Part shown: piece after piece, positions 35,560 through 36,923 of the stretch
Layout of the letters: each line of letters begins with the position of its first letter
Numbering within the stretch: position 1 is the first letter of the stretch
Source of the DNA: a virus
Taxonomy: Duplodnaviria; Heunggongvirae; Uroviricota; Caudoviricetes
Reading direction: 5' to 3' (one strand)
DNA length: 39,096 nt
Virus record (IMG/VR): IMGVR_UViG_2851971941_000002
Notes under the pieces: generated by a model
What the model was told of the DNA's origin: nothing
Databases searched by the model: none
Seen by the model: the letters and a program-made list of their open reading frames with translations, nothing else
Translations under genes and position numbers: made by a program

Positions 35560-35565
35560 TAAGAG

Positions 35566-36642
35566 TCAAGCCGTTATCGGGATGCTGTTGAGCTGCCTGT
35601 TTTGATTACGCAGTAATGTATAAACTTCGCGTGAGATATAGCGCTTCAGGCAGCGTATTGCTTCCATTTTTGTATGCCCTTCCGCTACTCGTCTGGCGAC
35701 ATATTCCTTCGTTTTATCGTCAGTTCGCAAACGTCCGATGGCAATGATGTGAAGTGCACTATTTGCAGCACGATCTCCACCCCGGTTAAGTCGATAACGA
35801 TTCGTTTTTCCTGAAGATACGGGAACAGGGCTGACACCACACAGTGCCGCAAAACCTGATTCTGATCTTAATCGTTGGGGATTGTCTCCTGCCGTGATCA
35901 GCAACTGCGAAGCGCTTTCGTATCCAATAGCATTACGTTTAATCAGTTCAGGCGCCAGCTCATCGACAATTGCCGCAATCATGACATCCAAATCAGCGAT
36001 TTCGTCATGTAACTCGAGATAGCGTCGGGCAAGGGACTTTAATGAAATACGATAAACGTTGGTAACATTGCGGTATTCACTGGCATCAGGCCGCCAGGAT
36101 CCCAGAGTCCTGATGAGCTGCATGCGCGTCATATTTCTGAGCTGTTCACGTAATTCATCCGGGGCAGAGATAATATTGGAATGGATAATCTGGAGAGCGA
36201 CTCTGCGGGCTGATATTGCTGTTTTTCGGCAAGTTTTTAATACCCGCAGAGACTCAATCATGCCATTGCGCGTTTTGGGTGTGACGGTTCTTATTCGGGA
36301 GAATGCGGCGTGAGCGGCACATTCAGCATCAATCGTGTCACTTTTACCCCGTTTGCGTCGCTCCATCCGATCTGGCGCAGTCACCTCAAGAACGTCTAAC
36401 CCGGCATTCTGTAAATAGCGAAGCAGACCTGATCCATAGGTGCCAGTACACTCAACACCAATTCGCTTTAATGCCCCAAACGAAGTCATCCATGCCAGCA
36501 TCTGCCGGTAACCTTGCCGTATTGTGGAGAAAAACTGGGTCCCCAGAACTTTATTGTTCTGATCTACGACAGCGGCAACGTGCAGATCTTTATGTGTATC
36601 CACGCCACCCACAACAGCGGTTTCCGTAACTTTACCTGCCAT
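35566..36642 (-). CDS. IS110-family (DEDD, RuvC-like) transposase/recombinase
   Basis: 358 aa; GGVDTHKDLHVAAV, VECTGTYG and KSDTIDAE motifs (DEDD catalytic core) and C-terminal GFAALCGVSPVPVSSGK region typical of IS110-family transposases. Confidence 0.9.
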   Translation of the reverse strand: MAGKVTETAVVGGVDTHKDLHVAAVVDQNNKVLGTQFFSTIRQGYRQMLAWMTSFGALKRIGVECTGTYGSGLLRYLQNAGLDVLEVTAPDRMERRKRGKSDTIDAECAAHAAFSRIRTVTPKTRNGMIESLRVLKTCRKTAISARRVALQIIHSNIISAPDELREQLRNMTRMQLIRTLGSWRPDASEYRNVTNVYRISLKSLARRYLELHDEIADLDVMIAAIVDELAPELIKRNAIGYESASQLLITAGDNPQRLRSESGFAALCGVSPVPVSSGKTNRYRLNRGGDRAANSALHIIAIGRLRTDDKTKEYVARRVAEGHTKMEAIRCLKRYISREVYTLLRNQNRQLNSIPITA

Positions 36643-36923
36643 AACAGAGCTCCTGTGAGGAAACAGAGTTGAATCTCCAGACAGATAACCCGGACAGGAC
36701 AGTAACGAGACAAACCGTCAGGCCCTTCTTGAGTCACGCGCATCGGTGAGGAGACGCCTCGCATGAAGGCGCTTCCGGCAACCGACAGGTCCAGGGCAGG
36801 ACACAAAGGGTCGATCGCTGTGTGAGTCAGGATGCGGGAAGGTCTTCACTGCATCAGTAATCACACCAGTCTGGTTAAACAGCAAACAGAGTGATGATAA
36901 AAACTGATACCGGCATTATTACT
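36643..36923 (-). ncRNA. candidate bridge-RNA region of the IS110-family element (5' non-coding end)
   Basis: 281-bp non-coding stretch between the element's 5' boundary and the transposase start, the position where IS110-group elements such as IS621 were reported to encode a structured guide-like bridge RNA; no structure prediction could be run here. Confidence 0.3.

What the first reader, a model, noticed from the sequence alone, without database searches (positions are those of the whole stretch)
35560..36923. IS110-family element nested in IS911 orfB, with a 281-bp 5' non-coding region that may encode a bridge RNA
The IS911 orfB frame is cut between ...FHSD and QGSHYT... by a 1364-bp element carrying a DEDD-type IS110-family recombinase. 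The recombinase stops 6 bp from one element end and starts 281 bp from the other. IS110-group elements (IS621 is the studied example) have been reported to encode, in exactly this non-coding end, a structured RNA that base-pairs with both target and donor DNA to programme recombination. If so, part of this RNA should be complementary to the IS911 orfB insertion site and to the element's own ends.
Basis: partly seen in the sequence, partly recalled or inferred. Interest (0 to 1): 0.7.

Follow-up and report, generated by a model that had tools for sequence, protein, structure and literature searches.

The report
ISEc21, a known RNA-guided insertion sequence
The insert is a copy of ISEc21, an IS110-family mobile element whose upstream non-coding end encodes a guide ("seek"/bridge) RNA that matches the insertion site; this was shown experimentally in 2024, so the finding is correct but not new.

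Summary
It is ISEc21. Its recombinase differs from the published one at 3 of 358 residues. It sits in the IS3-family transposase codons H-S-D|Q-G with no duplication, which is the published ISEc21 target.

The 281-nt leader contains the predicted guides. CACAGCGAT equals the last 9 nt of the left flank. CTGCCCTG is the reverse complement of the first 8 nt of the right flank. A second loop carries AGAAGGGC (right end) and UUACUG (junction C|AGTAA).

A covariance model built only from relatives with at most 86% protein identity finds this region (147 bits, E about 7e-38). Across 65 independent insertions of the clade, the guides change with the flanks.

Siddiquee et al. 2024 showed that this RNA binds the ISEc21 transposase, is required for movement and can be reprogrammed. 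Verdict: already known.

Two side results:
- This copy carries T41I at a residue invariant in 74 relatives.
- Non-enterobacterial relatives carry two alternative left guides. Both appear to be used, through alternative pairing to one shared stem strand. I found no report of this.

The parts
35550..36923 (-). Complete ISEc21 (1374 bp), IS110 family, IS110 group. There are no terminal inverted repeats and no target duplication.
   Evidence: Boundary set by alignment with an uninterrupted IS3-family copy. The sequence is 100% identical to loci annotated 'IS110-like element ISEc21 family transposase' in many E. coli genomes. Complete copies elsewhere are also 1374 bp.
35566..36642 (-). Recombinase gene (358 aa, DEDD/RuvC-like domain plus Tnp domain). 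It differs from the published ISEc21 transposase by T41I, G116R and I351L.
   Evidence: Comparison with the sequence in the supplement of PMC11187229. T41 is invariant in 74 of 74 relatives.
36643..36923 (-). Left-end non-coding region (el 1-281) that encodes the seekRNA/bridge RNA.
   Evidence: PMC11187229 mapped the transposase-bound RNA to this region of ISEc21.
36684..36840 (-). Conserved structured core of the RNA: target-binding loop, middle hairpin and second (donor-type) loop.
   Evidence: Hit by model R1, built from relatives with at most 86% protein identity: 147 bits, E about 7e-38. On the 56-sequence alignment, 96.1% of cells are paired and 154 cells show compensatory changes, against 42.6 in shuffles.
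36814..36822 (-). Left target guide (LTG), CACAGCGAU (el 102-110), on the 5' side of the first internal loop. It is identical to the last 9 nt of the left flank, so it would pair with the bottom strand.
   Evidence: It covaries with the flank across the clade.
36792..36799 (-). Right target guide (RTG), CUGCCCUG (el 125-132), on the 3' side of the first internal loop. It is the reverse complement of CAGGGCAG, the first 8 nt of the right flank.
   Evidence: It is associated with the right flank across the clade.
36722..36729 (-). Candidate left donor guide, AGAAGGGC (el 195-202), on the 5' side of the second internal loop. It is identical to right-end positions -11 to -4.
   Evidence: It is invariant in all relatives, as is the right end, so covariation cannot be tested. 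Its register differs from that of the LTG.
36700..36705 (-). Candidate right donor guide, UUACUG (el 219-224). It is the reverse complement of C|AGTAA, the last base of the right end plus the first 5 of the left end.
   Evidence: Covariation: left end AGTAA goes with UUAC in 65 of 65 elements, and left end AGTCA goes with UGAC in 8 of 8.
35564..35569 (-). -35 half (TTGACT) of the promoter that forms only when the ends are joined in the circle. It overlaps the stop codon TGA.
   Evidence: TTGAC is conserved at this place in the clade. Junction promoter formation is reported for ISEc21 in PMC11187229.
36915..36920 (-). -10 half (AATAAT, el 4-9) of the junction promoter, 17 nt from the -35 half in the circle.
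   Evidence: No sigma-70-like site was found on the minus strand of the integrated copy.
36851..36910 (-). 5' hairpin (el 14-73), specific to the enterobacterial ISEc21 group. It occupies the place where distant relatives carry a second left guide.
   Evidence: MFE and centroid folds; comparison of leaders.
35233..35549 (-). 3' part of the host IS3-family (IS911-like) element. It holds the C-terminal part of orfB, starting at QGSHYT. The outer end coordinate is approximate and was read from the terminal repeat TGTAGTGG.
36924..37859 (-). 5' part of the host IS3-family element: orfA, and orfB up to ...FHSD. OrfB also carries a TGG>TAG stop (36966-36968) and a frameshift. The outer end coordinate is approximate.
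   Evidence: RefSeq marks the same locus as frameshifted and incomplete.

Best explanation
This is a copy of ISEc21, an IS110-group insertion sequence that moves by RNA-guided recombination.

Proposed cycle:
- When the element is excised as a circle, its right end (TTGACT) and left end (AATAAT) join to form a promoter. That promoter transcribes the 281-nt leader and the recombinase gene.
- The leader folds into a stem that closes an internal loop.
- The 3' side of the loop (CUGCCCUG) pairs with the top strand, right of the crossover.
- The DEDD recombinase then inserts the circle between GAT and CAG, with no duplication.

The sequence recognised is CAC-AGC-GAT|CAG-GGC-AG. These are the codons for H-S-D|Q-G around the second catalytic Asp of IS3-family transposases, so the element specifically inserts into, and inactivates, other insertion sequences. 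A second conserved loop (AGAAGGGC ... UUACUG) matches the element's own ends and probably holds the donor.

Shown here: identity, boundaries, guide-flank matches, conserved structure and covariation. Shown in the literature for ISEc21: RNA-recombinase binding, requirement of the RNA for circle formation and insertion, and reprogramming. Inferred: the role of the second loop, and whether this particular copy (T41I) is still active.
For: Identity:
- 100% identical to loci annotated ISEc21.
- 355 of 358 aa identical to the published ISEc21 transposase.
- Pfam and NCBIfam IS110 matches.

Boundaries and insertion:
- Precise insertion without duplication.

Guides and structure:
- LTG matches the left flank 9 of 9 and RTG matches the right flank 8 of 8. 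By my own arithmetic the chance expectation is about 0.001 and 0.004 matches respectively in 281 nt.
- The covariance model from distant relatives hits only this region.
- The structure has 96.1% of cells paired, and 8 of 12 pairs of the loop-closing stem show compensatory changes.

Covariation with flanks:
- Across 65 independent insertions the middle codon of the flank agrees with a guide in 61. The permutation mean is 30.8, and 0 of 20000 permutations reach the observed value.
- RTG against the right flank: 6 of 20000 permutations reach the observed value.
- The candidate right donor guide covaries with the left end.

Promoter:
- Junction promoter TTGACT-N17-AATAAT, with no promoter-like site in the integrated state.

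Literature:
- PMC11187229 and PMC13626964.
Against: - Rfam 15 gives no match at E <= 1, so no curated family confirms the RNA.
- The single-sequence MFE fold is not better than shuffles (z = -1.8 for the 281-nt leader and -1.0 for a 181-nt sub-region, el 64-244). The support for structure comes from comparative data.
- Target (GAT|CAG) and donor (GTC|AGT) share no core dinucleotide at the crossover, unlike IS621.
- The AGAAGGGC match stops 3 nt before the right end, so its register differs from that of the LTG.
- A 58-nt RNA lacking the second loop was reported sufficient for ISEc21 movement.
- T41I at an invariant residue may have inactivated this copy. The three loci examined that hold a 100%-identical copy (the window, L001 and L208) are the same prophage remnant.
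Confidence: 0.92

Rival explanations
1. Fossil copy. The element is ISEc21 with an intact guide RNA region, but its recombinase is impaired by T41I (with or without G116R and I351L). It no longer moves by itself and is simply inherited with the prophage remnant. It could be mobilised only by another ISEc21 acting in trans.
For: - T41 is invariant in 74 of 74 relatives at 68-98% identity, and I351 is I in 65 of 74.
- Genomes that have a match to the element carry a median of one matching place.
- The three loci examined that hold a 100%-identical copy (the window, L001 and the plasmid copy L208) share the same neighbours: replication genes O and P, the IS3 remnant, and xis/int.
Against: - The ORF is full length, and the sampled invariant residues D15, E64, D105 and S276-S277 are present.
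- The effect of T41I has not been measured.
- Only three loci were inspected.
Confidence: 0.4
2. One-loop seekRNA model. Only the first loop (58-74 nt) is the functional guide. It recognises the target sequence both at the new site and flanking the resident copy, for excision. The conserved ends are recognised by the protein, and the second loop has no donor-binding role.
For: - PMC11187229 reports that a 58-nt RNA supports movement of a mini-IS, and that target-derived flanks around the donor are required.
- The element ends and the second loop are invariant across the clade, so there is almost no covariation to support pairing.
- The register of the AGAAGGGC match is offset by 3 nt from the end.
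Against: - The second loop repeats the architecture of the first: GAC/GUC closing pairs, an inner GAC...GUC hairpin with compensatory changes, and an outer stem with compensatory changes.
- It contains an 8-nt copy of the right end and a 6-nt complement of the junction.
- The one left-end variant (AGTCA) is matched by UGAC in 8 of 8 elements.
- IS621 needs both loops (PMC11208160).
Confidence: 0.3
3. The leader is only a 5' UTR and promoter region, and the matches to the flanks are coincidental.
For: The single-sequence fold energy is not significant, and there is no Rfam match.
Against: - Guide-flank covariation across 65 genome insertions. In the metagenome sample the site class (positions 1 and 4-5) matches one of the two guides in 52 of 56 dual-guide elements, and positions 4-5 match the guide in 20 of 24 single-guide elements.
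- Strong compensatory covariation in the stems.
- The covariance-model hit.
- The published experiments.
Confidence: 0.01

Closest known systems
ISEc21 (ISfinder; Siddiquee, Pong, Hall & Ataide 2024, Nat Commun, PMC11187229)
   Same: - Length 1374 bp.
- 358-aa transposase, 355 of 358 residues identical.
- Upstream non-coding region encoding the seekRNA.
[quoted passage not shown]
- No target duplication.
- Promoter formed at the circle junction.
   Different: - Three amino-acid substitutions, of which T41I lies at an invariant position.
- This copy sits in a degraded IS911-like element inside a prophage remnant.
IS621 bridge RNA system (Durrant et al. 2024, PMC11208160; Hiraizumi et al. 2024, PMC11208158)
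   Same: - IS110-group layout: long left end with the RNA, short right end.
- Internal loop whose 5' side pairs with the bottom strand on the left (9 nt) and whose 3' side pairs with the top strand on the right (8 nt).
- A second loop matching the element ends.
- Sigma-70 promoter assembled at the right-end/left-end junction.
   Different: - No Rfam or other curated model links the two RNAs.
- No shared core dinucleotide (IS621 has CT in both target and donor). Here the target is GAT|CAG and the donor is GTC|AGT.
- The left-donor match ends 3 nt before the crossover.
- The recombinase belongs to a different size class (345-385 aa against 315-330 aa, per PMC11187229).
- The target is a protein-coding motif of other insertion sequences.
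ISMch6 and other ISEc21 relatives (natural retargeting)
   Same: Same RNA architecture and same element ends. The guides differ where the flanks differ.
   Different: - The left guide reads CACTCTGAU, CACACUGAU, AACACCGAU, UACGGCGAU or CGCAUUGAU instead of CACAGCGAU.
- Many non-enterobacterial relatives carry two left guides.
IS1111-group seekRNAs (ISEc11, ISKpn4, ISPa11)
   Same: DEDD recombinase guided by an RNA that the element itself encodes and that matches both strands of the target.
   Different: The non-coding region lies downstream of the gene, the order of top- and bottom-strand matches is reversed, and subterminal inverted repeats are present (PMC11187229).

Membership tests
IS110 family insertion sequence (ISEc21) | DEDD (RuvC-like) N-terminal domain plus an IS116/IS110/IS902 C-terminal domain | tested here: met
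   PF01548, E = 1.7e-19, and PF02371, E = 2.2e-12. NF033542, 194.6 bits against a cut-off of 140.
IS110 family insertion sequence (ISEc21) | Near-identity to the reference ISEc21 | tested here: met
   355 of 358 aa identical to the ISEc21 transposase in the supplement of PMC11187229. RefSeq names identical loci ISEc21. The 1374-bp length matches the published clone arithmetic.
IS110 family insertion sequence (ISEc21) | No target-site duplication, and sequence-specific insertion in one orientation | tested here: met
   An uninterrupted target aligns across the break with no gain or loss. All sampled copies are in the same orientation as the IS3 transposase gene.
IS110 family insertion sequence (ISEc21) | IS110-group layout: long non-coding left end upstream of the gene, short right end | tested here: met
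   281 nt upstream of the gene and 16 nt downstream.
Bridge RNA / seekRNA | Conserved structured RNA encoded in the non-coding end | tested here: met
   The covariance model from relatives scores 147 bits. 96.1% of cells are paired, and 154 cells show compensatory changes against 42.6 in shuffles.
Bridge RNA / seekRNA | Target-binding loop: the 5' side matches the left flank (bottom-strand pairing) and the 3' side complements the right flank | tested here: met
   9 of 9 and 8 of 8 in the window. Covariation with the flanks across the clade.
Bridge RNA / seekRNA | Donor-binding loop complementary to the joined element ends | tested here: inconclusive
   There is an 8-nt copy of the right end and a 6-nt complement of the junction in a second loop of the same architecture. 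Only one covarying position exists. The register is offset by 3 nt. A 58-nt RNA without this loop is reported sufficient.
Bridge RNA / seekRNA | Core dinucleotide shared by target and donor and flanking the integrated element (IS621: CT) | tested here: not met
   The junctions read GAT|AGT and GTC|CAG, and the intact target reads GAT|CAG. No dinucleotide is repeated at the two junctions.
Bridge RNA / seekRNA | Promoter assembled only at the right-end/left-end circle junction | tested here: met
   TTGACT-N17-AATAAT at the joined ends. No sigma-70-like site on the minus strand of the integrated copy. Tested at sequence level only.
Bridge RNA / seekRNA | The RNA is made, binds the recombinase and is required for recombination | not testable with these tools
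   Reported for ISEc21 in PMC11187229. Not tested for this T41I copy.
Bridge RNA / seekRNA | Match to a curated RNA family model | tested here: not met
   No Rfam 15 match at E <= 1 in 35000-37900. Whether Rfam holds a bridge RNA family at all was not established.

The most novel reading that the evidence does not exclude
The ISEc21 clade reads a conserved protein motif of other transposases (H-S-D|Q/R-G or N-T-D|Q/R-G) at the codon level. Its non-enterobacterial members extend this reach with a bistable target-binding loop.

Two alternative 5' halves each carry their own left guide. Examples are CACAGCGAU with CACUCYGAU (the AGY and UCN serine codon families), or AACACCGAU with CACUCCGAU. The two halves compete for one shared 3' stem strand and one right guide, so a single RNA can direct insertion into two classes of target.

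ISEc21 itself, the copy in this window, has lost or never had the upstream guide, and it is restricted to AGY-type sites.
Probability: 0.55. Interest if true: 0.65.

Novelty: already known. Interest (0 to 1): 0.22.

Why it matters
For the window itself there is little to add. It shows a textbook-clean natural example of an RNA-guided IS110 element sitting at its programmed target, inside another insertion sequence. It also shows that the guide-target match can be read directly from raw sequence.

The comparative data gathered on the way could matter more.
- The clade's guides track the codon variants of a transposase catalytic motif.
- Many members seem to carry two interchangeable left guides. 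If this is real, it would be a natural precedent for multiplexed or switchable bridge RNAs, and an example of one mobile element specialising in disabling others.
- The lack of a shared core dinucleotide bears on how strand exchange works in this branch of the family.

Tried and rejected
- Rfam search of 35000-37900 at E <= 1 gave no match, so no curated family could be used.
- Single-sequence folding of the leader was not better than shuffles (z = -1.8 and -1.0). The MFE fold also buries part of the left guide, so I relied on comparative structure instead.
- I looked for a shared core dinucleotide or a 'TCAG' overlap between target and donor. Both contain TCAG, but the observed junctions (GAT|AGT and GTC|CAG) are not the products of a crossover within it, so I rejected this.
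- I tried to read the upstream 'UUCCNGG' of the dual-guide relatives as a second right guide. It fits better as a duplicate of the 5' stem strand.
- I tried to use the >=80% coverage counts of the flank-extended BLAST to measure how often ISEc21 sits in the same target. This is not informative, because the element alone already covers 82% of the query.
- Several automatic end calls were wrong and were corrected or set aside. These were the window itself, L057, L065 and L067, and a few metagenome loci.
- Literature searches for a description of two left guides in IS110 elements found nothing. This is not proof of absence.
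Full report
**What is there.** Window 35566..36642 (minus strand) holds a 358-aa ORF. It has the two domains of IS110-family recombinases: PF01548 DEDD_Tnp_IS110 and PF02371. It also matches NCBIfam NF033542, 'IS110 family RNA-guided transposase', at 194.6 bits. 1203 of 5426 genomes have some match. The protein differs at only three positions (T41I, G116R, I351L) from the ISEc21 transposase printed in the supplement of Siddiquee et al. 2024.

**Boundaries.** The flanks are the two halves of an IS3-family, IS911-like orfB on the same strand. 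Joining them in silico gives a sequence found uninterrupted, at 99.7% identity, in many E. coli replicons. Alignment with one of these (L002) shows ...CCACAGCGAT|CAGGGCAGCC... with nothing gained or lost.
- The insert is therefore 35550..36923, or 1374 bp.
- The gene ends 16 nt, not 6 nt, from that end. The 281-nt leader is as stated.
- Complete copies fetched from other E. coli genomes are also 1374 bp.
- The published clone coordinates imply the same length.

**The guide RNA in this copy.** I number the element on its own (minus) strand as 'el'; the window coordinate is 36924 minus el.
- El 102-110 is CACAGCGAT, identical to the last 9 nt of the left flank.
- El 125-132 is CTGCCCTG, the reverse complement of the first 8 nt of the right flank (CAGGGCAG).
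- El 195-202 is AGAAGGGC, identical to right-end positions -11 to -4.
- El 219-224 is TTACTG, the reverse complement of C|AGTAA, the circle junction.
- By my own arithmetic, a 9-mer and an 8-mer match in 281 nt are expected about 0.001 and 0.004 times by chance.
- Joining the ends creates TTGACT-N17-AATAAT. The integrated copy shows no sigma-70-like site on the minus strand between 35400 and 37900.

**Is the structure conserved?**
- Folding the single sequence is not convincing: z = -1.8 for the 281-nt leader and -1.0 for a 181-nt sub-region. Rfam 15 has no match at E <= 1.
- I therefore collected relatives. A protein search found thousands at 72-99% identity. A scan of one genome per species returned 80 loci at 68-98% identity across Proteobacteria.
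- The last ~12 nt of the right end (TAGAAGGGCGTC) and the first ~5 nt of the left end (AGTAA, or AGTCA in one subclade) are almost invariant.
- An alignment of the RNA core from 56 distinct elements (A3) gives a consensus with two internal loops of the same design. Each has an outer stem, closing GAC/GUC pairs, guide positions on the 5' side, a short inner GAC...GUC hairpin with a loop of variable length, and guide positions on the 3' side. A hairpin lies between the two loops.
- On that structure 96.1% of cells are paired, against about 40% when partners are slid by 1-3 columns. 154 cells show changes on both sides, against 42.6 +/- 5.9 in shuffles. 8 of the 12 pairs of the first outer stem covary.
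- A covariance model built from 40 relatives with at most 86% protein identity, excluding the window and all ISEc21-like copies (A4, R1), finds exactly one place in the 39-kb window. It is 36684-36840 on the minus strand, at 147 bits and E about 7e-38.

**Do the guides follow the targets?**
- Nearly all relatives are inserted at CAY-(AGY|TCN)-GAY | (CAR|CGN)-GG or at AAY-ACC-GAY | .... These are the H-S-D|Q/R-G or N-T-D motif around the second catalytic Asp of DDE transposases.
- Among 65 independent insertions, positions 4-5 of the last 9 flank bases agree with a left guide in 61. The permutation mean is 30.8, and 0 of 20000 permutations reach the observed value.
- Examples of natural retargeting: CACAGCGAT at AGY sites (all eleven ISEc21-like copies), CACTCTGAW at TCN sites, CACACTGAT at CACACGGAC, TACGGCGAT at TATGGTGAC, and CGCATTGAT at CGCATGGAT.
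- The right guide tracks the right flank too: CCCTG goes with CAGGG, CCGCG with CGCGG, and CYTTG with CAAGG. For the first 5 nt, 6 of 20000 permutations reach the observed value.
- In the second loop the only variable end position covaries. Left end AGTAA goes with TTAC in 65 of 65 elements, and AGTCA with TGAC in 8 of 8. This probably reflects a single evolutionary event.
- In E. coli, the complete copies I fetched lie at CAC-AGC/TGC-GAT|CAGGGCAG in different IS3-family variants. The exception on the right side is L086, whose right flank is unrelated sequence. Features flanking the sampled matches are annotated as IS3-family transposase fragments.

**What is already known.** Siddiquee et al. 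2024 (PMC11187229) used ISEc21 as their IS110-type model.
- They showed circle formation with a junction promoter and insertion without duplication.
- The upstream non-coding region was required in cis or in trans.
- RNA from this region co-purified with the transposase: a 74-nt seekRNA and a longer form.
- A 58-nt RNA was sufficient, and the system could be reprogrammed.
- They also described ISMch6 as a naturally retargeted relative.

Durrant et al. 2024 (PMC11208160) define the general two-loop bridge RNA model. A 2026 Nature paper cites the ISEc21 work.

**Where it differs from the IS621 paradigm.**
- The junctions (GAT|AGT and GTC|CAG) and the intact target (GAT|CAG) share no repeated dinucleotide, so there is no equivalent of the CT core. 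This agrees with the published 'no duplication'.
- The right-end match of the second loop ends 3 nt before the crossover, whereas the left target guide runs up to it.
- The reported sufficiency of a 58-nt RNA leaves the role of the second loop open.

I rate donor binding by that loop as probable but not shown.

**State of this copy.**
- T41 is invariant in 74 of 74 relatives, and this copy has Ile.
- The three loci I inspected that hold a 100%-identical copy are the window, L001 and the plasmid copy L208. All lie in the same prophage remnant, between replication genes O and P and xis/int. This fits vertical or segmental inheritance rather than recent transposition.
- The host IS3-family element is itself dead: it has a TGG>TAG stop at 36966-36968 and a frameshift.

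**Side finding: two left guides in relatives.** Non-enterobacterial relatives carry a second copy of the motif UGAC-YCNN-(9 nt)-NGACC about 60 nt upstream of the canonical one. The two 9-mers differ in the middle codon, for example CACAGCGAU upstream and CACUCYGAU downstream, or AACACCGAU and CACUCCGAU.
- In 25 such elements from genomes, the flank matches the upstream guide class in 10, the downstream class in 15, and neither in 0.
- In an independent metagenome sample of 56 elements, the counts are 31, 21 and 4.
- The 14-16 nt before the upstream motif pair with the same 3' stem strand as the canonical 5' strand. Mean duplex energy is -21.3 against -18.8 kcal/mol, and both beat permuted partners in 5000 of 5000 trials.
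- On a 39-sequence alignment (A5) both alternative helices are well supported. The upstream helix is 94.6% paired with compensatory changes in 10 of 17 pairs. The canonical helix is 92.4% paired with compensatory changes in 10 of 15 pairs.
- A further stem that would sequester the upstream module is 98.3% paired.
- The two long helices are mutually exclusive. This suggests a bistable loop that presents either guide next to one shared right guide.
- ISEc21 has a plain hairpin (el 14-73) in that place, and it is found only at AGY-type sites.
- I found no description of this in the searchable literature.
- Caveat: the two 5' strands are paralogous, so part of the covariation could reflect shared descent. 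Co-resident elements acting in trans cannot be excluded either.

**Verdict.** The element and its RNA-guided mechanism are already known.

Noticed in passing
Related loci, e.g. L073:170-336, L075:1189-1349, L053:42-204, L103, L137, L163 (not in the window): Non-enterobacterial relatives of ISEc21 carry two left-guide motifs in the leader, for example CACAGCGAU with CACUCYGAU, or AACACCGAU with CACUCCGAU. Of 81 such elements, the insertion site matches the upstream guide class in 41, the downstream class in 36 and neither in 4. The strand 5' of each guide can pair with the same 3' stem strand, and both alternative helices covary.
   Followed up: yes
window 36520-36522 (codon 41 of the recombinase, minus strand): This copy's recombinase has Ile at position 41, where 74 of 74 relatives and the reference ISEc21 have Thr. 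It also carries G116R and I351L. The copy may be inactive.
   Followed up: partly
window 35550/35549 and 36923/36924 (the two junctions): No dinucleotide is shared between the target (GAT|CAG) and the joined ends (GTC|AGT), and none is repeated at the two junctions, unlike the CT core of IS621. How strand exchange avoids mismatches here is unexplained.
   Followed up: partly
window 36966-36968 and about 37190-37450: The host IS3-family (IS911-like) element is itself a pseudogene. It has a TGG>TAG stop in orfB and a frameshift upstream, shown by overlapping ORFs in two frames. RefSeq marks the same locus as frameshifted and incomplete.
   Followed up: partly
window 34770-34886: Five direct repeats of about 22 nt (consensus TTTACCTGATTCGGGTAA), spaced 19-29 nt apart, lie inside the ORF at 34530-35204. 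The same locus is annotated elsewhere as a (frameshifted) replication protein next to replication protein P. They look like lambdoid origin iterons within the O-type gene.
   Followed up: partly
window about 33600-39096; L001, L208: The surroundings are a degraded lambdoid prophage remnant: replication genes O and P, then excisionase and a frameshifted integrase. The same block, including the nested IS pair, is also present on a 195-kb plasmid (p23AR0151A), there with an added IS30.
   Followed up: partly
L058, L060, L062 (Neopusillimonas, Pusillimonas and an uncultured Alcaligenaceae MAG): One relative is flanked on the left by ...TAGAAGGGGTC (right-end-like) and on the right by AGTAAAAGA... 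(left-end-like). It looks as if it had inserted into a donor-type junction, or stands in tandem with a remnant of a related element.
   Followed up: no
L069 (right junction): Four extra bases (AGTC) lie between the conserved right end ...GGGCGTC and the expected CAGGG of the target. This may be an imprecise event or a variant end.
   Followed up: no
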